DNA of 64,000 nt, from positions 3,972 through 67,971 of the forward strand of contig JAJYWL010000007.1 in the NCBI GenBank assembly GCA_021791545.1. Direction: 5' to 3'. The stretch comes from a bacterium (GTDB taxonomy: Bacteria > Patescibacteriota > Microgenomatia > Levybacterales > UBA12049). Numbering within the stretch: position 1 is the first letter of the stretch; each line of letters starts with the position of its first letter. Position numbers and translations under genes: made by a program. Shown in pieces: positions 11,001 to 41,787 of the stretch. The notes under the pieces were generated by a model. That model saw nothing but the letters and a program-made list of their open reading frames with translations, did not search any database and had not been told where the DNA came from.

Positions 11001-14000
11001 TCTATCATCATCCTTGTCTGTGCTCCGGTAGCAAAAGAATTTGTGGTTGCAAAATACATCTTAGTTCCGTAGGCTCCGCTAGATTGTACATAAATACCAG
11101 CTTGAGCAGTATTGCCGGATGAAGATTGTCCTGCACCAAAGGTAATTCCATTAGCATAGTCAGCAACGTTTGTAGGTGCTGTTAAATGTATGCCATAAGT
11201 GGTAGCGAGTCCGGGAGTTGTTACATTTATGGTACTACTTTCGGATACATCTAATAAATCATTTGGAGCAGTTATTCCAATTCCAACGTCTCCTGTGCCC
11301 GTTATTACCATTCTTTGATTAGTACCGCCTGTTAAAAATGAAATTGGAGCATTGTTTCCTTGGAATATGTTTAGAGAGTTAGCTCCTCCATAACTTGCTA
11401 ATGCTGTTCCTCCTGCAAAAACACCCATGTTTTGAGCAGCATCGCTTTTAAGTAATAAATATGCATATCCTGCAGAATTGGTATTTTGTATCTCTCCAGT
11501 GATGCCGGATGAAGAATTTCCATAAATATGTAAAGGACTTGCAGGGCTATCTGTTCCTATTCCCATATTTCCACCATAGCTGTAAAAGGCGTAGGTAGGG
11601 TTAGTTTGTGTTCCAGCAGGAAGAGACGCAACTGAAGCAGAATTTGTTGGTGAAATTGTAATATTATTACTTGCGCTTAAAGCTGTGTATGTATATTCCT
11701 CATAGCTTGTTGGATTTTTAACATATAAAGTACCAGTAGTTGGTCCCGCATAGCTCGTTAGAACAAAGACTATGTTTGCTGCCTTAATTCCATAAAGATA
11801 AGAAGCCTGTAAAGAAACAATTGGGGGACTTCCAAATGCCGCCTGTTGTTTTACTTGCAAATGTACAAGGGCATTATCGTCAGATTGAGATCCTGCAGCG
11901 CCTTGTTTCGAGATTAAAATATCTGCTGTCCCATATCCATATTGGGCAGGAATACTTACAGATGCAATAGGGAAGTATTGATTTGTATAGGTACCTCCTC
12001 CTGTAGTTGTTGTCCACCCAGACATTATTCCTTGTTCGAATAATCCTATTCCTCCGGCAACATCAAGTTTCGTAGTCGTACCAGTAATAGAATATGTTCC
12101 TATTCCGGCAGCTCCTGCTGTCGTAAGAGAAGTTCCCGAAGCTGCTGGGTCAAGGAAGTATGAGTTGTTGTCCAAGTCAGTAAAGGATCTACCATATATA
12201 GAACCAAGATTTGTAACTTTAAATTGTAGTCTTCCAAGAGCAGGGGATAGACCTGATGAAGCATTTATTAAATCTCCTGCCCCGGTATTGCTGTCTATTC
12301 CTAAAGCAGGTCCACTTGTTGTTCCCGAGAAAGAAGCGATAGGAGTAGTTGCTGAACTTCCTCTTACATCTAAAGTCGCAAGGGGAGCTGATATGCCAAG
12401 GCCAAGATTTCCTAAATGGTCTAATCTCATTTTTTCTGTGTAGGTTGCTCCATTTCCTACCATAAACCCTATATAACCGCTTTGATCTGTGGCTGAGAAG
12501 GCAGCATCTGTTCCGAAATTTATTCTTCCGACATCTTTGAAACTCGTTCCGTTATATGCTCTACCTACAAGAGTAGTTACGTCGGAATTTGCTGTTGCTA
12601 TTGTAGGAGCTGCTTTTGTTCCTTTTGCAACCTGAAGAATTAAAGCAGATTGTCCTGTTGTGCTTCCCGTGTAATTATCTACTTCTACACTTGGATACCT
12701 TGGTGCAGTGCTTGAATCATTTTCTACTACTATTATAGAATTCATATCATTTCCTACCACATTTATTCCCCCTCCATAGCCTTTATTTGGAGTAACAATT
12801 AATTGTCCGCTAAATGAAGCTTGAGTTTGGTTTCCCATTAAACCTGTGAATGCAAAATCTGCAGATGCTGTCGAAGATCCCCCTATAAGAAGATCATCTC
12901 CAGATTGAACAGGGGATAGAGCACCCGAAAGTTCTTGCCAAAAGTTATATGTAGTCGGACATGTTCCCCAGGCAGGTATACTTGATCCGGAAAGAAGACA
13001 TTGTCCGGAAGTTGTTGTTGATGAGACTGAAGTAACAAGACCTGTTGAATTTGCAGAATAGAGTACTGCATTGTTTCCATTGTTATTAACAAGAGTAAGA
13101 GTTTTCCCTGTTGGTATTGTAGTATTTCCATTTAGAGAAACTGTTCCTGTTCCTGTTGCAAAATTACCAGTTCCTGACATTGTTATATTTCCTGAACCAT
13201 CAATGGTTAATCTTGTTGAAAGGGTTTCTGGGTTTACTCCTGATACTCCTGCGGTTGATGTCATAAAATATATGTTTCCTCCAGCAGCGTTTCCTGTAGA
13301 TATTCCGCTTGCTAGGGTAAGATTGGCTCCTGTAACGTTTGTACCTGATCCTCCGCTGGCGTGTAGTATAACTTGTCTGGGAGAAGCCGTAGTAACTCCG
13401 TTTCCAAGATAAAAATCTTGTATGTAGCTTGTGCCCGTATTTCCTCCTATAACTGCTTGATTCGACCCTGTCGCAATTGCGTTATACCCTAAAGCAAGAG
13501 AATAATTAAGGTTATTCGAAGACATATCTGCATATGCTCCGATTATGGTGTTATTGTTTCCAACAGTAGGAACTGTGCCTGCATATGCTCCTAGTAATAC
13601 ATTATCTGTTCCTCCTCCTAAATTAACTCCAGCTTGATATCCGAGTAAGGCATTTTCAGTACCTGTGCTCAAGTTTGTACCTGCGCTTGTTCCAACAGCT
13701 GTGTTGTATCCTGAAGCAGTAGGGTTGCCAGCAAATCCTCCTACAAATATATTTGAAGTGCCATAGGCAGAAAGTATATTTGTTCCTCTAAATGCATAGC
13801 CTGTATAGCTATTAACTCCTCCTCCGTATCCCTTGTTTGGCATTATGTTAAGTTGTCCGCTAAATGATGCTTGTGTCTGGTTTCCCATCAGACCTGTAAA
13901 TGCAAAATCTGCAGATGCTGTTGAAGAACCTCCTATAAGAAGATCATCACCTGGTTGAACGGGGGAGAGAGCACCTGCTAGTTCTTGCCAGAAGCCTGCC

Positions 14001-17000
14001 CCTCCATTTGTAAGAAGTACACCATTGGAATAGATATTTTGACCATATATGTTTCTCCACTGGTGTGTGGCATCTCCTAAATCTATCTGCTGATTGGTTG
14101 TAGGGGCAACATTTGATCCTGTTCCTCCGGAGGGAGCTATGGCTAGATTTCCTGAGGTAGCTAAAAGTTGGACATTGTTTGTAGTTGCTCCATCATAAAT
14201 TTGGATTCCTCCTGTTCCTCCTCCATAATCGTAGTTAAATCTAACAGCAGAAGTACCTCCGTTTGAAGATATATCCAAGATTCCGGATGCTCCTGTTTTT
14301 TTAATAACCGTATCTCCACTTGAAGCTGTAAAACTTAATCCATTTCCTGTTGTAGTTATAGCTCCGGTTGCATCAACTTGAAAATTGGAAGAAGATCCAA
14401 CGGAAAATAACGCAGCTGAATTGGAATTTCCTATTCCAACATATCCGGAGCTATTAATAGTAAGTCTATCTGTATACGTTTCTGCGCCATAGGCTGTTCC
14501 ATTGGTTCCTTGCTGAATCCTAAAATCAAAATTGCTGCTTGCCAAGTAAAGTCTTGCACCTGTTCCTATTCTATTTCCTGATGTAGTTCTGTAAAGAGTG
14601 ATTGCTGGATTAGCATTGCCCTGAACAGATTCTCCGATTGTTACCAATGAATTAGCTGAAAGAAGAAATTCTGCTGAACTCGATGCAAATGGAGTTACAG
14701 GAGTACTGGCTGAGACAGAATTTTTAAATACAGCTCCGTTTCTTACATCAAGCTGAGCAACTGGATTATTTGTTCCGATACCAACATTGCCAGCAAAATA
14801 GCCTTGTCCGTCTGCTCTCACGCTAAAATTGGTGGTTGAACCAGTTACTCCTTGAAAATAGGTGTTATTAGCACCCGTTAAATTGTCTGTTATTGCCTGG
14901 AATATTCCAGGCGCACCGTAAGAATATCCTGATCCTACTTGGTGTCCTGTAAAAAATACTTGCCCAGTTGTGCCCACTGATGCAACAGCACCGGTTGTAT
15001 TTACGGTAAATTGTCCATTGGAACTGTTGGGACCTACAGTTAAAAGTTGTCCTGGATTTGTTGTTCCTATTCCAACATTTCCTGAACTGGCTTGTATCGT
15101 CATCCAAGTAGACGTGGCATTCATGTTGGTAAATCTTAGATCAGCTCCCGTTCCGGCTCCCATTGCTGCACCTGCGCTTTCGATATAATTTATTCCACCG
15201 CTGGGAACGAATTTAAGTCCACTTAAGACGCTTGCTAGTGTTCCATTATCTCGGATATATTGAGTACCAAAAACATCTAGGTTAACTTGTGGAGCTGCTG
15301 TGCCTATACCAACATTGCCTTCTACAATAAGACCGTTTGAGGGAGGGGTAGTGGTGACATATGTTGATCCAATAGCCTGACTCCCGCTTACTTCCAATAC
15401 AGCTCCAGTATTACTATATGTTGCTCCTGTATTCGATAAAACAAAGCCACGACTAGTTGCTGCATTTAAAGAGACACCTCCCTGATAATTTGCTAGTATA
15501 TATGCATTATTGGCTGTTCCACTATTACGTCCAGTTAGGTTTAATTGAGCGTTTGCGCTTCCTGCTCCTGCGTCAATAGTAAAGGCTCCGGTAGTATGGC
15601 CGGTACCTGTTACGTCAAGAGTATATGCGGGAGTGTTTGTTCCAATTCCAACATTTCCTCCGTATCCATTATTTGGCATTACGATAAGTTGTCCGCTGAA
15701 GCTGGCTTGTGTCTGATGGTTTGCAAGTCCAAGTCCTGTGAATGCAAATTCGGCGGATGCTGTCGAAGATCCTCCTAGTAATAGATCATCTCCTGACTGA
15801 ATAGGGGACAGAGCTCCCGAAAGTTCTTGCCAGTAGTTATAGTTTCCTGTAGAACAGCTTCCCCATGAGGCATTTGCTCCTCCGATAAGACATTGTCCTG
15901 CTCCTGTTGAGGCTCCCAGTGTAATTGCTCCGGAAGTTAAGGTTAATCCGGTAGAGGCTGCTATTGCGCCTGATGAATTAACTTGGAATTGAGCCGAAGA
16001 TCCTACATTAAATAAGGATGTGGCTGTTGTTCCGCCTATTGTAAAGTTACCGTTGGTGGCAACCATATATCGTGGAGGATAGCTGGCTGAGGATGAATCA
16101 AAAACCAACGTTCCCGTGGGGATAGATGTAGAACCAGTTGGATTAGGGTAAACAGTAGCTTGAATAGATTCTGTAATATTATAGGAGATAGACGTATAGC
16201 TGGTTGCTTTGTGGTAAGTATAGACTGAAATTGATCCGTCTGTTTCCTGATAGGCCAGAATCTTAGCTTTACTTCTTACATCTCCAAATAGATCATATTC
16301 ATATTTAAAGCCATTTCTATTACCCATTAAGATATTGAATTGGGATTTTTGATTGCTGCCCCAGCCATCGTCAAGAATTCCGTTAATAACTATATGATCG
16401 TATGTCGCGCTTGTGGAAATTGGTAAAGTTGCTATTTTATAATAAGTGTCGGAAGCAGGATTAACTCCTGTTTGGCTCCAACCCCAAACGGTATTGTTTA
16501 TTTGTGCGCTATTTCCTACTACTTGAAGAGCAGTTTGTGGATTATTGGTTCCTATTCCTAAATTTCCACCAGTTAAATAAGAATTTCCACTGGAGCTAAG
16601 TTGGACAGTAGCGCTTGCTCCTGAATAATCGTTTATGCCCGGGCTTATTAGAAATGCTGAAGCATTAGCAGCGGAGTTGTTAAACTGAACAATTTTACCT
16701 GTTTGATCTAATCTAAAAGATTGATGACTAGTTGTATTGACAACATTGGTAAGATTTATAGTGGTAGCTTGAACCGTACCACTTGTGTTACCGGGTGTGC
16801 CATTCCCGATATTTATATATCCATCTCCTCCCCTTGAGATTCCCGTAGTGACTGATCCTGATCCGTTATCCCAACCAAGTGATCCTCCCGAACTTAAGGT
16901 TAAAAGTTGTCCTGGGTTTGTTGTTCCAATTCCAACATTTCCACTACTATTTATTACCATTGCCGTTCCTGTTCCAAAGGAATTATTATTAACATTAAAT

Positions 17001-19834
17001 TCAATTCCTTTGCCTGTAACCCCCTGAACTACAGTATTAAGGTTGGTTCCGTCGTATCCGAAGTAAGCTCTGGAATTTGCAGACAAATAAGATATATTAG
17101 ATGCACTGTCTACACCTGACGGAGTTAATTTAATAAAAGCATTTCCTGATGTATCTGAGATATCCAATTTTGCACCTGGGCTTGTTGTTCCAATCCCAAC
17201 ATTCCCTCCGTATCCGTTGTTTGGCATTACGATAAGTTGTCCGCTAAAGGAGGCTTGTGTTTGATGGTTAGCAAGTCCAAGTCCTGTAAAAGCAAATTCG
17301 GCAGATGAAGTTGAAGAACCTCCAATTAGCAGATCATCGCTTGAATTGATAGGGGAAAGAGCACCGGTTAATTCTTGCCAGAAATTATAGTTTCCCGTAG
17401 AGCAACTTCCCCAAGAAGGTGCGTAACCTGCTCCTGCTCCTGAAACCAAGCATTGTCCTGAAGTTGAGGTTGTAGCGGATGTCACTACTCCAGTTCCCGT
17501 AGTTGCATAGAGTACTGCGTTATTTCCGGTTATTCCTCCAAGAGTTAATGTTTTTCCGGAGGTAACTGTTGTATTACTATTTAACGTAATTGTTCCTGTT
17601 GAATTTCCGACTGAAACATTTCCCGTATTGGTAGTAGCAAGGTTTAAAGCACCAGTGCCATTAGGGATTATCGATAAATCATCGTTTGAAACAGTACCCA
17701 AAGTTGCTGCAGAGCCATTTCCTAAGTAAAGAGTAGTATTGGTGATGTTATTTCCGCTTATTGTAAGATTTTGCGCCAAGGTTAGACCAGAGCTCATGGA
17801 AAAGTAGCTCCCAGTTGTTTTGGTTATGGTTCCATCGCCAATTTTTATTCCTCCCGTTGTCCCATCGCCAAAAACCGAATTAGATGTTGAGTTTGCGGAT
17901 AAAATTCCTCCTGCAGTCACGTTTCCCGAAGCATCTACTGTAAATTTAGCTACTCCGCTTGCAGATGCACTTATTATCGGTCCTGTTGACCCTTGATTTA
18001 TTGTCACTGCGGATTGTCCGCTTGAAGTAGCAAGGACGGCAAACATGTCATCTACTTCAACTGCTCCCTGAGCGGTAGATATATTGTTATTGTATGAGCT
18101 ATTTTGTAATGGTTTTTGAAGATCAATCTTTCCTAAACCGTCCGGAGAAATAGTAACATTAGCATTTGAACCGACATTAGTGCCAAGCACAAGCGGTTGT
18201 CCTAATAGCTTGAATTGGCCGCCTGTTGCTTGAAATGTGGGAGTGGCGGTGCCTCCAATAGAAAGATTTCCTGAAGAATCCAAGGCCAGGATTACGTTTG
18301 TTGCCGAAGTAGTAGCCGTAGTCGGATACATTCCTTGGAGCGTTTCGGCGTTTGTTGCATACGCAACTGTAGCTAAAGGTTGTCTGGGAGTAAGTTCTGC
18401 AGTTTGTCCTACTGTTACTCCTAGCCACAAAGCGTTATTTTGCGTAAATACTTCCGGTGGAATAACAGAGTTTTGTCCTAAGAGGACATTGAATATTCCG
18501 TCGGTGTCGGGAGATACATAATCCGTCTCCTGCCATTTGAAAATTGTGGTTCCAGAATCCGATGCTGTAGCACTGGTATAAATACCAAAACGCAGCCACG
18601 TGGGGCTGGTGATTGGGTTATCGTTGCTGTCGGTCAGCCTACCCTGAAACGACAGTATTCTCGGTGGAGCCACGGGAGCGGCAGCAAGGATTGGACTTTG
18701 ATTTTTGGGATTATCAAAAAAGCTTGTATAGAATCCAAATCCTATTGCAGCCATTATTATTATCAAAACCGCAAAGTTAAGATAGTGGGCAAGTGGATAG
18801 GAGTGATATGTTTTATACCAGTTTGGTCTTTTATATCTCAGTGCAATCCAATACTTTTTGTAGGAAGGAAGGTTAGCTGTAGATATGGTTAAAGGAGCAT
18901 AGAATTCTTTCTTTATATTTGAGACTTTAAGAAAGTTATGATCCGGGATTTTAGCTTTGATTTCGCTAGATTTCTCCGTGAAAACATGTTTTCCTTTAAC
19001 TTTCCATGCTATATATTCGGCATTCCTTACGCCCTTAGCGAGAGTTTCGGTTATCGCTTTATCGAATATAGCTTGGAAACCTAATCCCATTTTTTGGGCT
19101 ACTCTAAGAGGAGGGAACCAAGAGTAGTTTTTAATTCTAGGTTCCTCAGTTTTTGAAAGTTCTTGTGAAATAGCTTCAGGTTGTGTTGTGAAAAAGGGAG
19201 TTTGATAATTTGTAATTTCAGGCTGTGCTTTTATGAAGCCTTCTTCTTGAGCCCAGGAAAGATATTTCCTTAGAGAAGATAGCTTCCTATTGACCGTGGT
19301 AGCAGAAAAATTATTGTGGGTGATTAACCTCTGTTTGTATTCCTCGATGAGTTCTTTGTTTATTTTCCCTACGGTTGGAAGGTCTGAGTTAGGAGTGACC
19401 GTCTCAGCCCAGGTAAGGAATTGTCGAATATCAATGATATAGTTCTTTATAGTAAGATTCGATGCGTTGAATACATAGAGGTAGTTTTTAAATTCCTTTA
19501 TGTGCCATGGATCTTTAACCTCGACGGGTTGAGGAAGGACAGCTTTGAATGGATCACTAGAGATATATCCTTCAAGCTTAAGAAAGTAGAAGAACTTTCT
19601 AAGTGATGACATGTGCCTATCAAGTGAGCTTTCGGAAAGAACGGAGGCTGATTGTGTTTTATAATTTCGTATTGTTTCAAAGCTTATCTCGGAGGGGGAG
19701 AAAGCTTTCTTGTATTGGTCTTCAAAGAATTTAATGAAATGATTTATGTCCGATAGATAATTTTTTACCGTAACCTTTGAAGGCTGGTTCTTTTGTGATA
19801 ATAAATAATTTTTAAACTGGGCAAGTATATCCAT
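8030..19834 (-). CDS. Giant (3,934 aa) membrane-anchored surface protein. It has an N-terminal cytoplasmic region with two tandem phage-integrase SAM-like (core-binding) domains, a single TM helix, and a ~3,500-aa beta-rich repeat ectodomain.
   Basis: First SAM-like copy: ILAQFKNYLLSQKNQPSKVTVKNYLSDINHFIKFFE...SLDRHMSSLRKFFYFLKLEGYISSDP. Second copy: IKEFKNYLYVFNASNLTIKNYIIDIRQFLTWAE...TVNRKLSSLRKYLSWAQEEGFI. Both match the integrase N-terminal consensus (aflehL...lsenTlraYrrdlrrF..fl...s.rsiarrlsalrsfyryl). TM helix YLNFAVLIIIMAAIGFGFYTSFF. Many fibre-like repeats (GNVGIGTT(N/S)P..(L/V)). Four long internal repeats (CSTGNYN(F/Y)WQEL.GALSP..SGDDLLIGGSSTASAEFAFTGL...SFSGQLIVMPN.GYGG). S/T/N/G-rich. 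Confidence 0.85.
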   Translation of the reverse strand: MDILAQFKNYLLSQKNQPSKVTVKNYLSDINHFIKFFEDQYKKAFSPSEISFETIRNYKTQSASVLSESSLDRHMSSLRKFFYFLKLEGYISSDPFKAVLPQPVEVKDPWHIKEFKNYLYVFNASNLTIKNYIIDIRQFLTWAETVTPNSDLPTVGKINKELIEEYKQRLITHNNFSATTVNRKLSSLRKYLSWAQEEGFIKAQPEITNYQTPFFTTQPEAISQELSKTEEPRIKNYSWFPPLRVAQKMGLGFQAIFDKAITETLAKGVRNAEYIAWKVKGKHVFTEKSSEIKAKIPDHNFLKVSNIKKEFYAPLTISTANLPSYKKYWIALRYKRPNWYKTYHSYPLAHYLNFAVLIIIMAAIGFGFYTSFFDNPKNQSPILAAAPVAPPRILSFQGRLTDSNDNPITSPTWLRFGIYTSATASDSGTTIFKWQETDYVSPDTDGIFNVLLGQNSVIPPEVFTQNNALWLGVTVGQTAELTPRQPLATVAYATNAETLQGMYPTTATTSATNVILALDSSGNLSIGGTATPTFQATGGQFKLLGQPLVLGTNVGSNANVTISPDGLGKIDLQKPLQNSSYNNNISTAQGAVEVDDMFAVLATSSGQSAVTINQGSTGPIISASASGVAKFTVDASGNVTAGGILSANSTSNSVFGDGTTGGIKIGDGTITKTTGSYFSMSSGLTLAQNLTISGNNITNTTLYLGNGSAATLGTVSNDDLSIIPNGTGALNLATTNTGNVSVGNSTGTITLNSNTTVTSGKTLTLGGITGNNAVLYATTGTGVVTSATTSTSGQCLVSGAGAGYAPSWGSCSTGNYNFWQELTGALSPINSSDDLLIGGSSTSSAEFAFTGLGLANHQTQASFSGQLIVMPNNGYGGNVGIGTTSPGAKLDISDTSGNAFIKLTPSGVDSASNISYLSANSRAYFGYDGTNLNTVVQGVTGKGIEFNVNNNSFGTGTAMVINSSGNVGIGTTNPGQLLTLSSGGSLGWDNGSGSVTTGISRGGDGYINIGNGTPGNTSGTVQATTINLTNVVNTTSHQSFRLDQTGKIVQFNNSAANASAFLISPGINDYSGASATVQLSSSGNSYLTGGNLGIGTNNPQTALQVVGNSAQINNTVWGWSQTGVNPASDTYYKIATLPISTSATYDHIVINGILDDGWGSNQKSQFNILMGNRNGFKYEYDLFGDVRSKAKILAYQETDGSISVYTYHKATSYTSISYNITESIQATVYPNPTGSTSIPTGTLVFDSSSASYPPRYMVATNGNFTIGGTTATSLFNVGSSAQFQVNSSGAIAASTGLTLTSGAITLGASTGAGQCLIGGANASWGSCSTGNYNYWQELSGALSPIQSGDDLLLGGSSTASAEFAFTGLGLANHQTQASFSGQLIVMPNNGYGGNVGIGTNTPAYTLDVTGTGHTTGAFTIDAGAGSANAQLNLTGRNSGTANNAYILANYQGGVSLNAATSRGFVLSNTGATYSNTGAVLEVSGSQAIGSTYVTTTPPSNGLIVEGNVGIGTAAPQVNLDVFGTQYIRDNGTLASVLSGLKFVPSGGINYIESAGAAMGAGTGADLRFTNMNATSTWMTIQASSGNVGIGTTNPGQLLTVGPNSSNGQFTVNTTGAVASVGTTGQVFFTGHQVGSGYSYGAPGIFQAITDNLTGANNTYFQGVTGSTTNFSVRADGQGYFAGNVGIGTNNPVAQLDVRNGAVFKNSVSASTPVTPFASSSAEFLLSANSLVTIGESVQGNANPAITLYRTTSGNRIGTGARLYLASSNFDFRIQQGTNGTAYGAETYTDRLTINSSGYVGIGNSNSAALFSVGSSSNFQVDATGAITTTGNGLSFTASSGDTVIKKTGASGILDISSNGGTSAVRFNYDYGGGTGGIQIYDGATTNNVQLLATSGNLAIAPSGGTGSNVAPTTNQQIDLGDATHQWRNIYGQNIYSNGVLLTNGGAGFWQELAGALSPVQPGDDLLIGGSSTASADFAFTGLMGNQTQASFSGQLNIMPNKGYGGGVNSYTGYAFRGTNILSAYGTSNIFVGGFAGNPTASGYNTAVGTSAGTNLSTGTENALLGYQAGVNLGGGTDNVLLGAYAGTVPTVGNNNTIIGAYADMSSNNLNYSLALGYNAIATGSNQAVIGGNTGTSYIQDFYLGNGVTTASPRQVILHASGGSGTNVTGANLTLASGISTGNAAGGNIYFMTSTAGVSGVNPETLSTRLTIDGSGNITMSGTGNFATGTGTVSLNGNTTIPTGKTLTLVNNNGNNAVLYSANSTGLVTSVSSTTTSGQCLLSGSSIPAWGTCPTTYNFWQELSGALSPVQSGDDLLIGGSSTASADFAFTGLMGNQTQASFSGQLIVTPNKGYGGGINVVGNDMNSIIVVENDSSTAPRYPSVEVDNYTGSTTGQSALILQVAKGTKAAPTIATANSDVTTLVGRAYNGTSFKDVGRINFGTDAAFSATDQSGYIGFMVGNGATYTEKMRLDHLGNLGLGISAPLATLDVRGSSATTPIASFSGTTSGPALGIDSNTGAGDLINASSGLSPALGRLQFKVTNLGSIYGRSFTDLDNNSYFLDPAASGTSLTTAGAAGIGTYSITGTTTKLDVAGGIGLFEQGIMSGWTTTTGGGTYTNQYFPIASVSIPAQYGYGTADILISKQGAAGSQSDDNALVHLQVKQQAAFGSPPIVSLQASYLYGIKAANIVFVLTSYAGPTTGTLYVKNPTSYEEYTYTALSASNNITISPTNSASVASLPAGTQTNPTYAFYSYGGNMGIGTDSPASPLHIYGNSSSGITGEIQNTNSAGYAYLLLKSDAAQNMGVFAGGTALASYGGANSLNIFQGNNAPISFLTGGTNQRMVITGTGDVGIGITAPNDLLDVSESSTINVTTPGLATTYGIHLTAPTNVADYANGITFGAGQSSSGNTAQAGIYVQSSGAYGTKMYFATTNSFATGAQTRMMIDHLGNIGVNVTSPTSGYKMDVFGGGGTNGGILIEDSGSNPGAKLLQVGDDSFFTDIDVANTLGLYGNSNSAIASLKLGSGGGTITGSSGNIGIGNTSPAENLSIGNGTANSNWSIGSSSGNRMYMDTYIDAAYLAINRRSSDGAFARSTYGAASIGFVSDTSGGYFDFNTINAVNTNPTLAMRINETHYVGLYGQATGATSNAYLGFYDSGGTRIGYVGDGSTSNSDMYLVADTAGALHLGGNGSSSALNIDNSGFYGNVYMDPSGSAGQWVTVVSSGSVAGQGGLKWTQNSTYWMDTYLTASSATTGKLMFERNGGTSLVSISLTGIIRAAGTITGSTTPDYAETIRIKDQSIDSGDIVAAKDYDNSVKDIYQKALASKTSTPYSPDLIGAISENPGMLINNNFNSDNLWESNERPLTVAGRIPVKVTSKNGPIKVGDLVTSSEIPGVGMKATKAGMVVGTALTDFDPSSATQSARLINGQWQILDSTCTQNEPDCYAYGKILVFIKPGFSDPQVYLTSTGDMSIVDQATTSADFTVPHYYSISDALGNPIDRVGAFAQLAVANLRAGVVNAQQIIVNGQNLGDYIATIVNNIVGQNANGQVVSPIASDSIKTNLIAPTATSSAVALRFENDKLSVLNTNNSSGSAVATIDNQGNASFSGKLTSNQLDTNDASISGTLHVGKIIADQIVSGSSSATYVTNITNVYNSTPSSNTNFGLVNGSSTSTSSGTTNQTQTGTGYMDISSMSGQLSYVPTLSSQTAAFSEGLTVFGPSSLSDVSITGQVAINGSLILANNSINVLGSDFNIQPLKQGGVSIMAGLVYIDTNGNVTFGSDVQVKGTLYANAIAPIPGNDLAINLASPSGKVANLNVTNATGSSILSLNGKSGDLTASGAGTFAKLNLSLIQPAQALSETEITATGSAGTAWIAAHQKEVTIDNSLVTDKSLIYITPTADTKNQVIYLIRQVAGQSFTVGLPDFATSNIPFNWIIVN
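12765..17430 (-). repeat. Four dispersed in-frame direct repeats (~180-230 bp each, ~80-85% nt identity) inside the giant gene.
   Basis: Near-identical DNA blocks at about 12765-12945, 13815-13995, 15650-15900 and 17200-17430. An example shared string is gtccgctaaatga.gcttg.g...tgcaaa.tc.gcagatg...gttcttgcca. Confidence 0.7.
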
Positions 19835-37512: not shown

Positions 37513-38064
37513 ATGGAAAGAACCTTAGTAATATTAAAACCCGATGCCGTAAAAAAACATGTAATGGGTGAAATCCTCACAAGATTTGAAAAAGTCGGCC
37601 TCAAAGTTGTTGCAATGAAGTTTCTTATTGCTAAAAGAGATCTTATCGAAAGACATTATCCAGAAGATAGAGAAGAACTTTGGGTGGGTATAGGAAATAA
37701 AACCCTTGAAAACTACAGAGATTTGGAAATGGATCCGGTAGAATCTCTTGGAACAAGTGATGCCAGAGAGATAGGGAAAATGGTAAGAGTCTGGCTTATG
37801 GATTACATTATGGACGGACCTGTTCTAGCTATGGTCTTGGAATCACCTCATGCTGTAGAATTAGTAAGAAAAATGGTAGGACACACGCTTCCTTTGGTTT
37901 CCGCTCCCGGAACAATTAGAGGAGATTATGCATACGATTCATCCTACCTTGCAAATAGCAATAAAAGAGCAATAGAAAATCTTGTTCATGCATCAGGAAC
38001 AGTAGACGAGGCTAAATACGAAATTCCACTTTGGTTTAGCGAAGACGAGATCCACAATTGGTAA
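37513..38064 (+). CDS. ndk: Nucleoside diphosphate kinase with a ~35-aa insertion.
   Basis: ERTLVILKPDAV...RFEKVGLKVVAMKF. Catalytic His at NLVHASGT. Confidence 0.85.
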   Translation: MERTLVILKPDAVKKHVMGEILTRFEKVGLKVVAMKFLIAKRDLIERHYPEDREELWVGIGNKTLENYRDLEMDPVESLGTSDAREIGKMVRVWLMDYIMDGPVLAMVLESPHAVELVRKMVGHTLPLVSAPGTIRGDYAYDSSYLANSNKRAIENLVHASGTVDEAKYEIPLWFSEDEIHNW

Positions 38065-38089: not shown

Positions 38090-38671
38090 TTAAGAGAAAA
38101 TTATTTTTTCTACTTTATTTATTACGCTCGCTAAGTCTGTTGAATTGTCTACAAATCTAAGTGGAATTTTGTTGTCTTTTGAAATTCTTTTAGCAAAATT
38201 GATCGAAATATCTTGACTTTGTTTTATTCTCTCTAACAAACTGCAGTCTTTTCTTATGAGGTTTTTTAATCTTCTTGGAAGATTAGTACGATCTGACGTT
38301 AATCTTTCTAGGATTGAATTTGGACTGGATTTTAAATAAATTAATGATTTAAAATTTTTTATCCATTCTTTTTCAATAACTGATTTGACCCCATTTTTAG
38401 TAAAAAGAACAAAATGTCCGTCTAATATAGCTATTGTAGATTCTAATGAAGATAATTTAGAGAAGATTTCAATTCTCCCTTTTTCTTGTTGTTTGTCTGA
38501 AATTCTGCCTAAATCAAGCTGATCGTGGCAATTAAAGTGATTCATTAAAGCTTGAGAGCCGTAGATAGGGGTAATTCTTTCATCATTTATTGCTAATTCT
38601 CTAGTAACTGATGATTTACCTGATCCTGTTATGCCCCCTATAAAGAAGAGGGCAGGCTTAATTTGTTCCAT
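38090..38671 (-). CDS. P-loop NTPase, (d)NMP-kinase-like.
   Basis: Walker A FFIGGITGSGKSS. Small alpha/beta protein of 193 aa. Confidence 0.5.
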   Translation of the reverse strand: MEQIKPALFFIGGITGSGKSSVTRELAINDERITPIYGSQALMNHFNCHDQLDLGRISDKQQEKGRIEIFSKLSSLESTIAILDGHFVLFTKNGVKSVIEKEWIKNFKSLIYLKSSPNSILERLTSDRTNLPRRLKNLIRKDCSLLERIKQSQDISINFAKRISKDNKIPLRFVDNSTDLASVINKVEKIIFS

Positions 38672-39251
38672 TTATTTGTTTAATATATTTCTTAAAAACG
38701 CTATCGATGGTTTTAATATTGAATTTTTTGTTTCCATATTTTTTCATCCATGCCCAATAAGTTTTTAGTTCATCCTCATTTAAGCTTGTTATTCCGAGGG
38801 TTTTTGCTAGCTTATTTAATCTAGTAATTGAAGCTGTCTCTTTAAGAGTTTCTATTTCCCAACAGAAAATCTTATTGTCACATTCAGTAAATTTCACTTC
38901 TTCACCATTAATTTGAAATATCCAGTCTTGACAATTAGCAACTGCCGCTTCTTTGAAGCCAAGTGTATATACAAAAAAAATGCTTGGGATAAACTGCTCC
39001 GCAGTTATCTTTATTGAGTATTCTTCTCTCGTATTTCCTTCATGTTTCCCTTTTTTGAGTACTATTTCTCCATTCAAATTATGGAGTCTTACTTGTAAGT
39101 CAATTCCTTTTTCGTTACCTGAAGTGAAGAGAATGGAAAGCCTTTTTCTTTGTTGCCATTTAGGGGAAATAGCACTTAATTTAGCTAAAACCTCATACAT
39201 TTCTTTCCTGTTTTTAAATTTTCCTCTTATTTCTTTTTCAGTTTTTTTCAT
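38658..39251 (-). CDS. Hypothetical protein, possibly CYTH-like triphosphate tunnel enzyme.
   Basis: N-terminal EKEIRGKF resembles the CYTH ExExK motif. Weak. Confidence 0.3.
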   Translation of the reverse strand: MKKTEKEIRGKFKNRKEMYEVLAKLSAISPKWQQRKRLSILFTSGNEKGIDLQVRLHNLNGEIVLKKGKHEGNTREEYSIKITAEQFIPSIFFVYTLGFKEAAVANCQDWIFQINGEEVKFTECDNKIFCWEIETLKETASITRLNKLAKTLGITSLNEDELKTYWAWMKKYGNKKFNIKTIDSVFKKYIKQINGTN

Positions 39252-39873
39252 TTAAATACTTTTTAGATTCTTTTAAGAGCCTCTCTACGGTTTCAATGTC
39301 TTTCTCATATATATGAGCAGAGGAAACCATAAATTTCATTTGTCCTAATGGATATCCTGTTGCTTTTGCTATTTTTTTATGTAGATAGTGAATTGCGATA
39401 AAATTCGCATAACTTCTTGTCACATTTTGAGATCTAAAGAATCCTGTTAAATGAAGCCTTCCTTCTCTTACTTTAATATCTATTAAGCTTAGGCACGGTA
39501 TTCTTGGTCCAGGATCATTGGGCAAAAGAAGACTGATGGTAGCAGCTTTTGTTTCTGGTTTTGATTTTAATCTTTTGACAATCCAATCTATCTGATCTAT
39601 TCCTAATTGATCGTACAATCTTTTCCCGTAAGAAGAGTTTAGTTCGGGGACTATTTCCGTAGTTTCCATTTTTTTTCTATATAAGCTAACTAATTTTTTA
39701 TCTCCCAATTCTTTAAATATCTTATCATTTGGGTCGAATGTATTAAATACTAGGAAAACATCTGTTAATTCTTTTATCTTTTCTTCTTCATCATGAAATT
39801 TACTTCCGTAATCTAAGACGTTTTTACAATAATTTATCCAGTTTCTTCCACCAGAACCTCTTATTGTTAACAT
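39238..39873 (-). CDS. Thymidylate-synthase-fold protein (ThyA/dNMP hydroxymethylase-like, minimal, 211 aa).
   Basis: PCLSLIDIKVREGRLHLTGFFRSQNV aligns to ThyA PCH...lyQRSaD. ANFIAIHYLHKKIA...SSAHIY aligns to NIASYALL...gDaHIY. The canonical N-terminal region and the phosphate-binding Arg pair are not evident. Confidence 0.5.
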   Translation of the reverse strand: MLTIRGSGGRNWINYCKNVLDYGSKFHDEEEKIKELTDVFLVFNTFDPNDKIFKELGDKKLVSLYRKKMETTEIVPELNSSYGKRLYDQLGIDQIDWIVKRLKSKPETKAATISLLLPNDPGPRIPCLSLIDIKVREGRLHLTGFFRSQNVTRSYANFIAIHYLHKKIAKATGYPLGQMKFMVSSAHIYEKDIETVERLLKESKKYLNEKN

Positions 39874-39998
39874 ATAATGTGTATATCATACACATTATAT
39901 GTTGTCAAGTGGTACTTTTTCTATCTTAATTTTCAGATATAATATGCACACGAAGTACATATTGATTTTATATTTTCTTTCAGATATCATTTTGTTGT

Positions 39999-40589
39999 AT
40001 GAAGGTATTTTTTGCAGCTTCAACTTCTCAGTTTGATAAATATTTTCCTATTTATAAACAGATTTGTAGTACTATAAAATCAAGAGGACATACATTAACT
40101 AGAGATTGGATTGATGAAGCAAAAGAAGTTCTGGAAAAAGATTTAAGAGTTGATTATGAGGAAATGTATGAAGATATTATGGCTTCTATTTTATATGCTG
40201 ATGTTGGGATAGTGGAGGGTACAGTTAAGGGTTTAAGTACTGGTCATCAAATGACTATTGCTCTTCAGAAAGGAAAGCCTCTTCTTTTTTTGCACCAGGG
40301 AAGCGGAGAAGATAAATTCCCCTTTATTGTTCAAGGAGTCCATTCTGAGCTTTTTGTAGATAAGCAATATAAAGATCCAAGTGAAATTCCGGCACTCATA
40401 AAAGAATTTTTGGAATTGAATAAGAGAGGAAAAAAGGTAAGATTTAATTTAGTTTTAACAGCAAAAGAAGAGAAATATGTTGAATGGGCTTCTTTTGTTT
40501 ATAAAAAAACTAAGACAGATATAATCAGGGAATTAATTACTGCAAGAATGGAGACGGATTTAAATTATAAAAAAGCAAATAAGAAGTAA
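39999..40589 (+). CDS. Nucleoside 2-deoxyribosyltransferase/DNPH1 (Rcl)-like protein.
   Basis: VFFAAS (compare iYFCGS). ADVGIVEGTVKGLSTGHQMTIA aligns to DNPH1 ADVVVAEVTQPSLGVGYELGRA. The catalytic Glu position is Gln here. Confidence 0.45.
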   Translation: MKVFFAASTSQFDKYFPIYKQICSTIKSRGHTLTRDWIDEAKEVLEKDLRVDYEEMYEDIMASILYADVGIVEGTVKGLSTGHQMTIALQKGKPLLFLHQGSGEDKFPFIVQGVHSELFVDKQYKDPSEIPALIKEFLELNKRGKKVRFNLVLTAKEEKYVEWASFVYKKTKTDIIRELITARMETDLNYKKANKK

Positions 40590-40623: not shown

Positions 40624-41787
40624 TTATTCTTCAGGATCTTCGGAGTGAACTCTAGTATAGAGAATAGCTAGTCTTTTTATTGGTTCGCTTTTCATTGCTT
40701 CAGCGGTTTCTGTAATTCTGTTTGGGGATGGGATTGCCTTTAATACTTCGGTTACAGCTTCAATTTGTCCAATTGATGCTAAATACTCCAAGTGGGAGAC
40801 TAGTTCTTTATCAAGAAACATTGGAAGATATTCCTGAATAATGGGATCTTGAAGCCTTGCTTTGTAGTCTTTTTTTGGTTTTACATTTCTATTTTTGTCA
40901 TAATCATAATGTTCGTCAAATCTTAATGATTCTTCGTCTGTAAAATCAGGGCCAATTACTTCGTCAAAATACGGCCTCACAAGTTTAGCTATGTCTTGTT
41001 TTGAAACCCCCAAGGCTTGTCTATCTGTATTTATTCTACCCACAAAATCGGCATATCTATCTAATGCCTCATCTGATAGATAGCGTAAATCAAAATCAAA
41101 TTTTCTACCTTCACCATTGACTCTTTCTAATACTTTTAATCCGTCAGCAGTGCCTGTTGGATCCAAGTCTTTATAATTTTTCGTTAGAACATTATCAACA
41201 ACTCTAAAAGAGTGTCCTCCGTTGATTCCTACTCGCATGTCAGCAAGTTCTTCCCAAAATCTTCCATTGTTGAGTCTTCTTCTTAGTTGAGGGCTAATCC
41301 TGTCTGCAAACATTGATCCCGGTTTTTCAACAATTTGGCTATGTGCAATGCTAAATGGTCTTTGACTGCCTGGAGCAAAAACAGTACCTTCGGGGGCGCT
41401 AAATACCATTTCCATATATATTCCGAACAGATCCTGTAACTGTTCCTCTGTGAAATTCTCTTTTGCCCAAGTCCTTGATTTTTCTCTTTCTTGATCCCAC
41501 TCAGACTTTGGAAGGCCATTTGCAAAAGTAGGAATTCCTTCATAGCTTACTTGTCCGTCAATTCTATCCATAATTCCCCAGAATCTTCCGTCTTTGATGT
41601 CTCTAAAAAGCCATGCGACACTTAAATCATCTTTTGCTTCTGGGTGTTGCTCATAATAGGAATCCATGAACTGGTTGGCTTGAGGGAAAGCGGAATCTTT
41701 CTGAGGAAGACTTCTTAGGTGTTCCCATTGAAGGGAGTCATGTGTTGGTGGCCATACTCTTTGTGTTGTTCTTTCCGGTGTTGTCAT
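40624..41787 (-). CDS. Hypothetical protein (387 aa). W/R/D-rich, atypical for the window.
   Basis: ORF only. No recognisable motif. Confidence 0.4.
   Translation of the reverse strand: MTTPERTTQRVWPPTHDSLQWEHLRSLPQKDSAFPQANQFMDSYYEQHPEAKDDLSVAWLFRDIKDGRFWGIMDRIDGQVSYEGIPTFANGLPKSEWDQEREKSRTWAKENFTEEQLQDLFGIYMEMVFSAPEGTVFAPGSQRPFSIAHSQIVEKPGSMFADRISPQLRRRLNNGRFWEELADMRVGINGGHSFRVVDNVLTKNYKDLDPTGTADGLKVLERVNGEGRKFDFDLRYLSDEALDRYADFVGRINTDRQALGVSKQDIAKLVRPYFDEVIGPDFTDEESLRFDEHYDYDKNRNVKPKKDYKARLQDPIIQEYLPMFLDKELVSHLEYLASIGQIEAVTEVLKAIPSPNRITETAEAMKSEPIKRLAILYTRVHSEDPEE

What the first reader, a model, noticed from the sequence alone, without database searches (positions are those of the whole stretch)
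38090..40589. Compact nucleotide-modification/salvage cassette: ThyA-fold protein + P-loop kinase + CYTH-like + DNPH1-like
Three overlapping minus-strand genes encode a (d)NMP-kinase-like P-loop protein, a possible CYTH triphosphatase, and a minimal thymidylate-synthase-fold protein. The last has the catalytic Cys (PCL) but a divergent phosphate-binding region. A divergent gene for a DNPH1/nucleoside-deoxyribosyltransferase-like protein lies adjacent; its catalytic Glu is replaced by Gln. Phage DNA hypermodification systems combine a ThyA-fold dNMP hydroxymethylase with a dNMP kinase. A cellular copy in a small-genome bacterium could mark DNA base modification (such as 5-hm-pyrimidines), or a salvage route suited to a nucleotide-auxotrophic symbiont.
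Basis: inference. Interest (0 to 1): 0.5.

Follow-up and report, generated by a model that had tools for sequence, protein, structure and literature searches.

The report
Repressor-controlled modified-uracil nucleotide gene cassette
A small-genome bacterium carries a four-gene cassette, switched by its own nucleotide-sensing repressor, that probably makes and activates a chemically altered uracil nucleotide rather than ordinary thymidylate.

Summary

Two points change the interpretation.

1. The TS-fold protein keeps the catalytic Cys and the uracil-specifying Asn177 (E. coli ThyA numbering). It has Asn in place of Asp169, the residue that binds the folate pterin. This 'RSQN' motif is present in 113 of 117 relatives. 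D169N is the published diagnostic of phage flavin/O2-dependent 5-hydroxy-dCMP synthases. Canonical and methanogen-type TS keep Asp. I therefore predict non-folate C5 chemistry on a uracil nucleotide, possibly 5-hydroxy-(d)UMP.

2. The DNPH1-like protein lacks the whole catalytic triad (Tyr/Asp/Glu become Phe/Ile/Gln). It carries a C-terminal ribbon-helix-helix-like domain. A 19-bp palindrome, ATGTGTAT-N3-ATACACAT, sits on the operon's -10 box and recurs next to this gene in related loci. It is most likely a nucleotide-sensing repressor, not an enzyme.

The cassette recurs in CPR-like metagenome contigs. There CYTH is swapped for MazG, and the kinase for a guanylate-kinase type. The product and its end use (DNA, defence or signalling) remain untested.

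Verdict: new variant of a known kind, moderately high interest.

The parts
38090..38671 (-). NMP-kinase-like P-loop protein (archaeal adenylate-kinase type), last gene of the operon
   Evidence: P-loop GGITGSGKS. Pfam AAA_17 at 1.8e-7. NCBIfam archaeal adenylate kinase at 0.0014, far below its cutoff. A profile of the window, L016 and L008 orthologues hits Sulfolobus and Methanococcus adenylate kinases (1nks 2.1e-9, 7owe 5.5e-9). H86, R133 and R134 are invariant among the three.
38658..39251 (-). CYTH / triphosphate-tunnel metalloenzyme, overlapping both neighbours by 14 nt
   Evidence: Invariant E5-x-E7-x-R9, R37, K66, E77, E132 and E134; D51 and R75 nearly invariant. The family profile hits PDB 2een at 2e-12, 1yem at 5e-10 and 7ns8 (SaTTM) at 1e-8. 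15 of 40 members hit PF01928. Found next to the TS-fold gene in L008, L009/L019, L016 and L017.
39238..39873 (-). Minimal (211 aa) thymidylate-synthase-fold enzyme with the Cys146 / 'RSQN' (D169N) / Asn177 signature; first gene of the operon
   Evidence: PF00303 at 1.6e-14. TIGR03283 matches full length at 94.9 bits, below its 174.55 cutoff. AF2 pLDDT 96. Active-site mapping to E. coli ThyA. 113 of 117 homologues carry C-R-S-Q-N...N.
39864..39908 (.). Candidate operator: palindrome with 21-nt arms, core ATGTGTAT-ATC-ATACACAT at 39877-39895, covering the TS-fold start codon and the -10 box
   Evidence: arms 90% complementary. The core is unique in the 64-kb window, with 0.02 expected. The same core lies next to the DNPH1-like gene in L016 (0 mismatches), L017 (1) and L011 (3), with variants in L008, L009 and L001.
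39894..39923 (-). Promoter-like site for the TS-fold/CYTH/kinase operon (TAGAAA-18-TATAAT)
   Evidence: 10 of 12 matches. The -10 hexamer at 39894-39899 lies inside the right arm of the palindrome. This is a consensus match only.
39962..39990 (+). Promoter-like site for the DNPH1-like/RHH gene (TTGATT-17-TATCAT)
   Evidence: 9 of 12 matches; consensus match only. It overlaps one copy of the direct repeat TTTCAGATAT[A/C]AT.
39999..40418 (+). DNPH1 / nucleoside-2-deoxyribosyltransferase-fold domain (aa 1-140) without the catalytic triad: putative nucleotide-sensing domain
   Evidence: Rat Tyr13/Asp69/Glu93 (human Tyr24/Asp80/Glu104) align to Phe4/Ile60/Gln85. At the Glu position none of 29 family members has Glu; they have Gln, Val, Leu or Ile.
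40434..40568 (+). C-terminal ribbon-helix-helix-like domain (aa ~146-190: RFNLVL strand, then two helices)
   Evidence: In the AF2 model residues 141-154 are extended and helices span 155-168 and 172-186. hhalign against Arc/Mnt/CopG/NikR/ParD gives probability 64% and E 6e-5 over 41 columns in register. No Pfam or PDB sequence hit. The domain is present in all 29 aligned family members.
37513..38064 (+). Nucleoside-diphosphate kinase, convergent neighbour; a possible last step (NDP to NTP), but probably only syntenic
   Evidence: PF00334 at 6.4e-37. The adjacency is kept in the close relative L016 but not in L008 or L009.

Best explanation
This is a self-regulated operon for making and activating a C5-modified uracil nucleotide.

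Shown:
- Three translationally overlapping genes encode a TS-fold enzyme, a CYTH triphosphate-tunnel enzyme and an NMP kinase.
- A divergent gene encodes a DNPH1-fold protein with no catalytic residues and an extra C-terminal domain.
- A conserved palindrome overlaps the operon's -10 box.

Inferred:
1. The TS-fold enzyme uses its conserved Cys to activate C5 of a uracil mononucleotide (Asn177 retained). It does not use methylene-folate, because Asp169 is Asn, the C-terminal lid is missing and position 143 is Arg. By analogy with the only characterised D169N TS homologues, it may use a flavin to make 5-hydroxy-(d)UMP.
2. The CYTH enzyme hydrolyses a (d)NTP to supply the monophosphate substrate or to remove the competing canonical nucleotide. 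This is the role that MazG-type enzymes fill in sister loci and gp56 fills in T4.
3. The AdkA-type kinase raises the product to the diphosphate, and NDK takes it to the triphosphate.
4. The DNPH1-like/RHH protein is a dimeric repressor. It binds ATGTGTAT-N3-ATACACAT and releases or tightens on binding a (modified) nucleoside monophosphate.

The end use of the product (DNA/RNA incorporation, defence or signalling) is unknown.
For: Cassette and folds.

Linkage: the TS-fold and DNPH1-like genes are neighbours in L001/L012, L008, L009/L019, L010, L016 and L017. The CYTH gene is present in four of these.

Functional replacement:
- L010 and L011 have a MazG-like NTP pyrophosphatase where CYTH would be.
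- L009 has a guanylate-kinase-type kinase instead of the AdkA type.
- L008 adds a Mom-like DNA-modification protein and Ham1.

Active site, at E. coli positions L143/C146/C168/D169/N177:
- Window family: R/C/Q/N/N.
- E. coli ThyA: L/C/C/D/N.
- Methanogen-type TS (virus PhiF1): E/C/H/D/N.
- DLP3 gp80, a proven 5hodCMP synthase: E/C/Q/N/D.
The window signature holds in 113 of 117 homologues.

Literature:
- D169N was used to pick nine further TS homologues, and all made 5hodC. The enzymes bind FMN and use O2, and they needed a cognate dNMP kinase for robust incorporation into DNA (PMC13326640).
- Asp169 H-bonds pterin N3, and the C-terminal lid seals the folate site (PMC6514825).

Regulator:
- Catalytic triad lost.
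- RHH-like domain.
- The operator is unique in the window and overlaps the -10 box.
- Related sites number 10 at 3 or fewer mismatches in 207 kb, against a mean of 2.6 in shuffles. Eight of them lie in or beside the cassette, most in promoter-proximal positions. In L011 the partner gene is MazG rather than the TS fold.
Against: - No biochemical data exist for any family member.
- By overall sequence the family profile is nearer to methanogen-type TS (113 bits) than to the phage hydroxylase DLP3 gp80 (62 bits). D169N is therefore probably convergent, and the chemistry need not be the same.
- Position 143 is Arg, not the Glu of the hydroxylases.
- Several family members come from strict anaerobes (Clostridium baratii, Lachnospiraceae, Oscillospiraceae). 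An O2-dependent hydroxylation would be odd there.
- The fold search cannot separate TS subclasses.
- RHH support is only moderate.
- The CYTH substrate is unknown, and its nearest solved relatives include class IV adenylate cyclases.
- NDK adjacency is limited to close relatives.
- No glycosyl- or other DNA-transferase is present in the window.
Confidence: 0.4

Rival explanations
1. It is an ordinary, if non-orthologous, thymidylate pathway for a nucleotide-scavenging symbiont. The minimal TS-fold protein is a genuine thymidylate synthase of the archaeal/methanogen type, perhaps using a non-folate C1 carrier. CYTH acts as a dUTPase analogue, the kinase as a thymidylate kinase, and NDK finishes dTTP. 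The DNPH1-like protein merely regulates it.
For: Asn177, Cys146, Arg166/Ser167 and His207/Tyr209 are kept. The best NCBIfam match is TIGR03283, over the full length. The family profile scores highest on a methanogen-type TS. NDK is adjacent. Archaeal TS cofactors remain uncharacterised (PMC9931769).
Against: - The TIGR03283 score of 94.9 is far below the 174.55 cutoff.
- Asp169 is Asn in 113 of 117 members, whereas the methanogen-type representative keeps Asp.
- The Arg126/Arg127 clamp is lost, and Leu143 is Arg.
- The distribution is sporadic and accessory. Homologues lie beside recombinases, conjugation genes, transposases and STAND NTPases. They also occur in free-living Clostridium, Marinobacterium and Campylobacter, which are expected to have a canonical TS; that expectation is inference.
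- The segment has lower G+C than its surroundings.
- Sister loci carry Mom-like, methyltransferase-fusion and FGE-domain partners, which a plain TS would not need.
Confidence: 0.2
2. It is a free-base or small-molecule pathway like mildiomycin (MilA/MilB) or bacimethrin (BcmA/BcmB). The TS-fold enzyme modifies a pyrimidine NMP, and the NDT/DNPH1-fold partner cleaves the glycosidic bond to release a modified base.
For: The pairing of a TS fold with an NDT fold is the MilA/MilB logic (PMC4081090, PMC5175136). MilA is the top Foldseek hit (query TM-score 0.83). L010 has a TS-fold::SAM-methyltransferase fusion with Asp169/Asp177 next to the DNPH1-like gene. L022 has a 357-aa Nuc_deoxyrib_tr-like neighbour.
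Against: The DNPH1-like protein has none of the Tyr/Asp/Glu catalytic residues in any of 29 members. It carries a DNA-binding-type domain and has a conserved operator. A kinase and an NTP-hydrolase in the operon point towards nucleotides rather than free bases. The window enzyme has Asn169/Asn177, unlike MilA.
Confidence: 0.1
3. It is an inducible anti-phage or conflict system. On a nucleotide cue the repressor releases the operon, which depletes a canonical pyrimidine nucleotide or makes a toxic or decoy analogue that blocks phage replication.
For: Non-CPR homologues sit beside a NACHT-SLFN protein, a kinase-STAND-TPR protein, transposases and recombinases. L001 lies next to a serine recombinase, TraG and a relaxase. 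The system is tightly repressed, has low G+C and is sporadically distributed.
Against: There are no PADLOC hits for any of the five proteins. No phage-derived trigger or effector is recognisable. In the window and in L016 and L009 the cassette lies among housekeeping genes (ArgRS, M16 peptidase, NDK) rather than in a defence island.
Confidence: 0.15

Closest known systems
Phage flavin-dependent 5-hydroxy-dCMP synthases (RB69 gp48, DLP3 gp80, HY126 AfhB; PDB 9iqu) with their cognate dNMP kinases
   Same: Both are minimal TS folds of about 210-240 aa with the catalytic Cys. Both have the 'RSQN' motif, with Asn in place of Asp169 and Gln at position 168. Both work with an NMP kinase to reach the triphosphate level. 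TM-scores to 9iqu are 0.76 (query) and 0.74 (target).
   Different: The window enzyme keeps Asn177 (uracil type), where the phage enzymes have Asp (cytosine type). Position 143 is Arg rather than Glu. It is encoded in cellular genomes rather than viral ones. By profile score it is no closer to this clade than to other TS (62 bits against 113 for methanogen-type TS). The kinase is AdkA-type, not T4 gp1-type. No glycosyltransferases are present. Flavin and O2 use are untested, and some hosts are anaerobes.
T4-type pre-replicative base replacement (gp56 dCTPase, gp42 dCMP hydroxymethylase, gp1 dNMP kinase, host NDK)
   Same: The pathway logic is the same: an NTP pyrophosphatase/triphosphatase, a TS-fold C5 modifier, an NMP kinase and NDK. 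The logic is kept across sister loci by non-orthologous replacement.
   Different: Every component belongs to a different family (CYTH rather than a MazG/dUTPase-like enzyme; AdkA-type kinase). The folate ligand Asp169 is absent. The cassette is chromosomal, in a cell, and under a dedicated repressor.
Methanogen-type thymidylate synthase (TIGR03283)
   Same: It is the closest overall sequence class. The match is full length, the size is the same, the ThyA C-terminal lid is absent, and Asn177 is kept.
   Different: The score is about half the equivalog cutoff. Asp169 is Asn and His168 is Gln. The Arg126/Arg127 pair is replaced by Lys/Ala, whereas the methanogen-type representative keeps Arg-Arg.
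DNPH1 (5-hydroxymethyl-dUMP N-hydrolase) and MilB/BcmB NDT-family N-glycosidases
   Same: The Rossmann-like fold is the same over the whole DNPH1 length, and a Ser/Thr-rich loop sits at the position of the phosphate loop. Like MilB with MilA, it is the genomic partner of a TS-fold enzyme.
   Different: The catalytic Tyr, Asp and Glu are all replaced (Phe, Ile, Gln/Val/Leu). An extra RHH-like domain of about 55 aa is present. A conserved LTRDW motif is not seen in DNPH1. A cognate palindromic operator is present.
Ribbon-helix-helix repressors (Arc, Mnt, CopG, NikR type)
   Same: The domain has the strand-helix-helix layout. It has an 'RFNL' strand motif like Arc 'QFNL' and Mnt 'HFNF', and a 'KT..IIRELI' start to helix 2. 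A palindromic operator overlaps the -10 box, in a divergent autoregulatory layout. NikR is also an RHH protein with an attached ligand-binding domain (my own knowledge).
   Different: The sensor domain is N-terminal and has the DNPH1 fold. The full-text search found two papers mentioning both ribbon-helix-helix and deoxyribosyltransferase; neither was opened, and their titles concern unrelated phage genomics. Similarity to RHH profiles is only moderate.

Membership tests
Folate-dependent thymidylate synthase ThyA | TS fold with catalytic Cys146 and Arg166/Ser167 | tested here: met
   PF00303 at 1.6e-14. AF2 pLDDT 96 with Foldseek hits to TS. C127, R147 and S148 are invariant.
Folate-dependent thymidylate synthase ThyA | Asp169 H-bonding pterin N3 of methylene-tetrahydrofolate | tested here: not met
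   Asn150 in the window protein. Asn in 113 of 117 homologues. The role of Asp169 is taken from PMC6514825.
Folate-dependent thymidylate synthase ThyA | Arg126'/Arg127' phosphate clamp, hydrophobic Leu143, and the C-terminal lid (residues 261-264) | tested here: not met
   Lys/Ala at 126/127 and Arg at 143. The protein ends at about Pfam profile position 227 of 266.
Folate-dependent thymidylate synthase ThyA | Asn177 (uracil specificity) | tested here: met
   N157 aligns to Asn177.
Folate-dependent thymidylate synthase ThyA | Score above the NCBIfam equivalog cutoffs; dTMP synthesis; thyA complementation | tested here: not met
   All eight NCBIfam TS models score below their cutoffs; the best is 94.9 against 174.55. 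Enzyme activity and complementation cannot be tested with these tools.
Methanogen-type thymidylate synthase (TIGR03283) | Full-length match above the trusted cutoff, with Asp169 retained | tested here: not met
   The match is full length (11-195 against 11-200 of 201) but scores 94.9, below 174.55. Virus PhiF1 ORF59 has 'RSHD' where the window protein has 'RSQN'.
Flavin-dependent 5-hydroxy-dCMP synthase (AfhB / RB69 gp48 / DLP3 gp80) | D169N diagnostic substitution | tested here: met
   The criterion comes from PMC13326640.
Flavin-dependent 5-hydroxy-dCMP synthase (AfhB / RB69 gp48 / DLP3 gp80) | N177D (dCMP substrate) and L143E | tested here: not met
   Asn at 177 and Arg at 143.
Flavin-dependent 5-hydroxy-dCMP synthase (AfhB / RB69 gp48 / DLP3 gp80) | Closer in sequence or structure to this clade than to other TS classes | tested here: not met
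   The family profile scores 62 bits on DLP3 gp80 and 113 on methanogen-type TS. 9iqu ranks 22nd in Foldseek, with E-values indistinguishable from those of TS entries.
Flavin-dependent 5-hydroxy-dCMP synthase (AfhB / RB69 gp48 / DLP3 gp80) | Bound FMN and O2-derived hydroxyl | not testable with these tools
   This needs purified protein, UV-visible spectra and 18O2 labelling. One hint only: the L009 operon contains GTP cyclohydrolase II.
dCMP/CMP hydroxymethylases (T4 gp42, MilA) | Asp at 177 and an acidic residue at 143, with Asp169 retained | tested here: not met
   The window protein has Asn177, Arg143 and Asn169. MilA has Asp aligned to position 177.
DNPH1 / nucleoside 2-deoxyribosyltransferase N-glycosidases | Fold | tested here: met
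   Foldseek probability 1.0 with target TM-score 0.72-0.84. Profile E-value 1.2e-10 over residues 3-146.
DNPH1 / nucleoside 2-deoxyribosyltransferase N-glycosidases | Catalytic Glu nucleophile (human Glu104), Tyr24 and Asp80 | tested here: not met
   These align to Gln85, Phe4 and Ile60. None of 29 members has Glu at that column. The triad definition is from PMC10483697.
Ribbon-helix-helix transcription factors | Strand-helix-helix domain recognisable by profile | tested here: inconclusive
   The AF2 secondary structure fits. hhalign gives probability 64% and E 6e-5. There is no Pfam or PDB sequence hit.
Ribbon-helix-helix transcription factors | Palindromic or repeated operator in its own or the divergent promoter | tested here: met
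   Window 39877-39895 overlaps the -10 box. The site is conserved in L016, L017 and L011, with variants in L008, L009 and L001. Binding itself is not testable here.
CYTH / triphosphate tunnel metalloenzymes | N-terminal ExExK motif, tunnel Arg/Lys, C-terminal acidic pair, and a profile match | tested here: met
   E5-x-E7-x-R9, R37, K66, E77, E132 and E134 are invariant; D51 and R75 are nearly invariant. PDB 2een at 2e-12 and 7ns8 at 1e-8; PF01928 in 15 of 40 relatives. The window protein alone has no Pfam hit. The substrate cannot be tested here.
NMP kinases (archaeal adenylate kinase type) | P-loop, lid arginines and a profile match; equivalog score | tested here: inconclusive
   The P-loop and R133/R134 are conserved. 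1nks matches at 2.1e-9. The NCBIfam AdkA score is 18, against a cutoff of 155. It is therefore a relative, not an adenylate kinase orthologue.

The most novel reading that the evidence does not exclude
A cellular organism (a CPR-like bacterium) deliberately synthesises 5-hydroxy-dUTP or another C5-modified dUTP through a uracil-specific, folate-independent TS-fold enzyme. It then incorporates it into its own DNA, partly replacing thymine. This would be a pre-replicative non-canonical base pathway previously seen only in viruses. It is controlled by a repressor built from a catalytically dead DNPH1 fold that senses the modified mononucleotide.
Probability: 0.12. Interest if true: 0.9.

Novelty: new variant of a known kind. 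Interest (0 to 1): 0.62.

Why it matters
- TS-fold enzymes were only recently shown to do flavin-dependent hydroxylation, and only on dCMP in phages. A widespread cellular clade with the same diagnostic substitution but a uracil-type pocket would extend that chemistry to a new substrate and to cells.
- It would also point to an unrecognised modified nucleotide in CPR bacteria and in some Firmicutes and Proteobacteria.
- The DNPH1-fold/RHH protein would be a new class of nucleotide-responsive repressor derived from an enzyme, with a readily testable 19-bp operator.
- The finding warns that about 115 database proteins annotated or annotatable as 'thymidylate synthase' probably are not. This affects metabolic reconstructions of nucleotide-auxotrophic symbionts.

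Tried and rejected
- Viral contig scan with the family alignment: no relatives.
- tblastn against phage genomes: only distant TS homologues below 30% identity, and no hit for the kinase. The cassette is therefore not a recent prophage fragment.
- PADLOC: no defence-system match.
- PHROGs: only generic TS hits and the Mom-like hit in L008.
- Genome and metagenome scans gave only 4 and 8 loci. The first genome scan failed because the alignment was too diverse.
- Pfam on the isolated C-terminal domain and a PDB profile search for it gave nothing significant.
- Foldseek against PDB and BFVD could not discriminate TS subclasses.
- Literature searches for MJ0757, for the PDB codes, and for a TS-fold dUMP hydroxylase or 5-hydroxy-dUMP found nothing relevant. 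A search for ribbon-helix-helix plus deoxyribosyltransferase returned two papers that I did not open.
- He et al. 2026 (HY126 AfhB structure) is not in the library, so flavin-contact residues could not be checked.
- I considered and rejected the DNPH1-like protein as a MilB-like glycosidase (triad absent). I also rejected the TS-fold protein as a cytosine hydroxymethylase (Asn177, Asn169).

Full report
**Observation.** They are 38090-38671(-) at 193 aa, 38658-39251(-) at 197 aa, 39238-39873(-) at 211 aa, and the divergent 39999-40589(+) at 196 aa. Each minus-strand junction overlaps by 14 nt, which suggests translational coupling. The 38-40 kb bin has G+C 0.305, against 0.36-0.38 in the neighbouring bins. 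The flanking genes are housekeeping: arginyl-tRNA synthetase, an M16 peptidase and NDK on one side, and a VKOR/DsbA pair on the other. Proteins identical to the window's lie on a 420-kb NCBI contig. No source gives an organism name. A distant relative of the DNPH1-like protein is labelled Candidatus Woesebacteria. 'CPR-like' is therefore an inference.

**Folds.** All four assignments made by eye hold up.
- Kinase: it has a P-loop and matches Pfam AAA_17. A three-sequence profile hits archaeal adenylate kinases (1nks, 2.1e-9). It is far below the AdkA equivalog cutoff.
- Middle protein: it has no Pfam hit alone. An exhaustive profile search found about 150 relatives. A 40-member profile hits CYTH structures (2een at 2e-12; the Sulfolobus triphosphate tunnel metalloenzyme 7ns8 at 1e-8; class IV adenylate cyclases weakly). 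15 of 40 members match PF01928. The ExExK-type motif (E5, E7, R9) and the tunnel residues R37, K66, E77, E132 and E134 are invariant; D51 and R75 are nearly so.
- 211-aa protein: it is a high-confidence TS fold (pLDDT 96).
- Divergent protein: its family profile aligns to rat DNPH1 over the full length at E 1.2e-10. Its model matches DNPH1 structures with Foldseek probability 1.0.

**The TS-fold enzyme is not a standard thymidylate synthase or hydroxymethylase.** I mapped it on E. coli ThyA with reference sequences fetched from phage records. Residues at L143/C146/C168/D169/N177 are:
- E. coli ThyA: L/C/C/D/N.
- Canonical Bacillus phage TS: L/C/N/D/N.
- Methanogen-type TS of virus PhiF1: E/C/H/D/N.
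- DLP3 gp80: E/C/Q/N/D.
- Window protein and 15 diverse relatives: R (or N)/C/Q/N/N.

Across all 117 homologues found, 113 have C-R-S-Q-N...N. Asp169 H-bonds N3 of the folate pterin, and the ThyA C-terminal segment seals the cofactor site (PMC6514825). Here Asp169 is Asn and the lid is absent. The Arg126/Arg127 clamp is Lys/Ala.

A 2026 paper showed that RB69 gp48 and DLP3 gp80 are FMN-binding, O2-using 5-hydroxy-dCMP synthases. D169N is their diagnostic residue; nine further D169N homologues were tested and all made 5hodC. Co-expression of a cognate dNMP kinase was needed for robust incorporation into DNA (PMC13326640). PDB 9iqu, the phage HY126 dCMP hydroxylase AfhB, carries the same 'RSQN' motif.

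The window family shares that signature but keeps Asn177, the determinant of uracil over cytosine. My prediction is folate-independent C5 chemistry on dUMP or UMP, with 5-hydroxy-(d)UMP as the leading candidate.

There are caveats:
- The family profile is nearer to methanogen-type TS (113 bits) than to DLP3 gp80 (62 bits), so D169N probably arose independently.
- Position 143 is Arg, not Glu.
- Several members are from strict anaerobes, where O2-dependent chemistry is doubtful.
- Fold searches cannot resolve TS subclasses.

**The DNPH1-like protein is most likely a repressor.** The DNPH1/NDT catalytic triad is Tyr24/Asp80/Glu104 in human numbering (PMC10483697). It aligns to Phe4/Ile60/Gln85. 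Across 29 family members the nucleophile column is Gln, Val, Leu or Ile, and never Glu.

All aligned members carry an extra C-terminal stretch of about 55 aa. The model shows an extended 'RFNLVL' segment followed by two helices. hhalign places it in register with Arc, Mnt, CopG, NikR and ParD at probability 64% and E 6e-5.

Independent support comes from DNA:
- The 125-bp divergent intergenic region holds a palindrome with 21-nt arms. Its core, ATGTGTAT-ATC-ATACACAT (39877-39895), is unique in the window, with 0.02 expected.
- The palindrome overlaps the best -10 hexamer for the operon and the TS-fold start codon.
- The same core occurs beside the DNPH1-like gene in L016 (exact) and L017 (1 mismatch).
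- It occurs in L011 (3 mismatches), where the divergent partner is a MazG-like gene and there is no TS-fold gene.
- Variants lie before internal or neighbouring cassette genes in L008, L009, L017, L018 and L001.
- In 207 kb of non-redundant loci there are 10 sites with 3 or fewer mismatches, against a mean of 2.6 in shuffles. Eight lie in or beside the cassette, most in promoter-proximal positions.

The operator therefore tracks the DNPH1-like/RHH gene, as expected for its binding site.

**Conservation and variation of the cassette**:
- L016, a close relative, has the same four genes plus NDK.
- L017 has the TS fold and CYTH, with the regulator convergent.
- L008 has the regulator divergent from TS fold / CYTH / Mom-like 503-aa protein / AdkA-type kinase / Ham1.
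- L009 has the regulator divergent from TS fold / CYTH / guanylate-kinase type / 133 aa / GTP cyclohydrolase II.
- L001 has the TS fold and regulator only, beside a serine recombinase, TraG and a relaxase.
- L010 has the regulator, then a TS-fold::SAM-methyltransferase fusion (Asp169/Asp177), then a MazG-like gene.
- L011 has the regulator divergent from a MazG-like gene, inserted in the str operon.

MazG replaces CYTH, and one kinase family replaces another. This argues for a pathway logic of NTP hydrolase, C5 modifier and NMP kinase, the logic of T4 gp56/gp42/gp1.

Outside CPR-like contigs the RSQN..N enzyme has other partners. A 480-520-aa FGE-sulfatase-domain protein follows it in three Firmicutes loci. 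A PurM-like AIRS protein precedes it in Marinobacterium. A 357-aa NDT-like protein follows it in L022. These loci often lie beside STAND NTPases, transposases or recombinases.

**Mechanism proposed, and confidence.**
- Shown: the gene order, the folds, the residue signatures, the operator and its conservation.
- Inferred, with my own confidence: the regulator role (about 0.7), non-folate chemistry on a uracil nucleotide (about 0.6), a 5-hydroxy product (about 0.3), and incorporation into DNA (about 0.12-0.15).
- The role of CYTH as supplier of the monophosphate, or as remover of the competing triphosphate, rests only on the MazG replacement and the T4 analogy.

**Rivals.**
- A non-orthologous thymidylate pathway (0.2): favoured by Asn177 and the methanogen-type backbone, disfavoured by D169N and the accessory distribution.
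- A MilA/MilB-like free-base pathway (0.1): disfavoured by the dead triad and the DNA-binding domain.
- An inducible conflict system (0.15): the context of distant homologues fits, but there is no PADLOC hit.

**Novelty.** The library search found no paper describing a TS-fold dUMP hydroxylase or 5-hydroxy-dUMP. The 2026 paper mentions neither 5-hydroxyuracil nor 5hodU and discusses only viral enzymes. A search for ribbon-helix-helix plus deoxyribosyltransferase returned two phage and virus genomics papers that I did not open. I rate the finding a new variant of known kinds: TS-fold C5 modifiers, RHH repressors, and phage-style nucleotide modification cassettes.

Noticed in passing
window 8030-19834 (-): Giant ORF of 3934 aa. 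Its only Pfam matches are two N-terminal phage-integrase SAM-like domains (residues about 3-194). The remaining 3700 or so residues are unassigned.
   Followed up: partly
window 40624-41787 (-): 387-aa ORF with no Pfam, NCBIfam, PADLOC or PHROG match. It lies between the DNPH1-like gene and the VKOR/DsbA pair. It is absent from the syntenic close relative L016, so it is an insertion or a lineage-specific gene.
   Followed up: partly
L011 4530-5594: A distant DNPH1-like/RHH gene is paired divergently with a MazG-like pyrophosphatase. The pair is inserted inside the conserved str operon, between rpsG and fusA, and has the same type of palindrome between the two genes.
   Followed up: partly
L010 5001-7254: A DNPH1-like/RHH gene is followed on the same strand by a 416-aa fusion of a TS-fold domain (Asp at both 169 and 177, so cytosine- and folate-type) with a SAM methyltransferase, then a MazG-like gene. 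This is reminiscent of bacimethrin or 5-hydroxymethylcytosine chemistry.
   Followed up: partly
L004 6001-8069; L013 6902-9093; L015 508-2711: In Clostridium baratii, Acetatifactor/Lachnospiraceae and Oscillospiraceae the RSQN..N TS-fold gene is always followed by a 478-523-aa protein with a C-terminal FGE-sulfatase domain. This is an unexplained conserved pair. In L013 it sits beside a protein-kinase/STAND/TPR protein.
   Followed up: partly
L008 2116-3627: A 503-aa protein with a Mom-like DNA-modification domain (Pfam 1.6e-5, PHROG 2.3e-6) is embedded between the CYTH and kinase genes of a sister cassette, with Ham1 downstream. This hints at DNA-level modification in that variant.
   Followed up: partly
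L009 1704-3481: A sister cassette carries a guanylate-kinase-type kinase, a 133-aa unknown protein and GTP cyclohydrolase II (the first riboflavin-pathway enzyme). This is a possible flavin link, or simply another nucleotide hydrolase.
   Followed up: no
window 39919-39943 and 39966-39990: A direct repeat containing TTTCAGATAT[A/C]AT occurs twice upstream of the DNPH1-like gene. Each copy ends in a -10-like hexamer. These may be tandem promoters or a second binding site.
   Followed up: no
L006 4870-9907: In Marinobacterium the TS-fold gene follows a PurM-like (AIRS/AIRS_C) gene. It abuts a 1073-aa SLFN/AlbA-NACHT protein flanked by IS66 and rve transposases, a defence-island-like setting.
   Followed up: no
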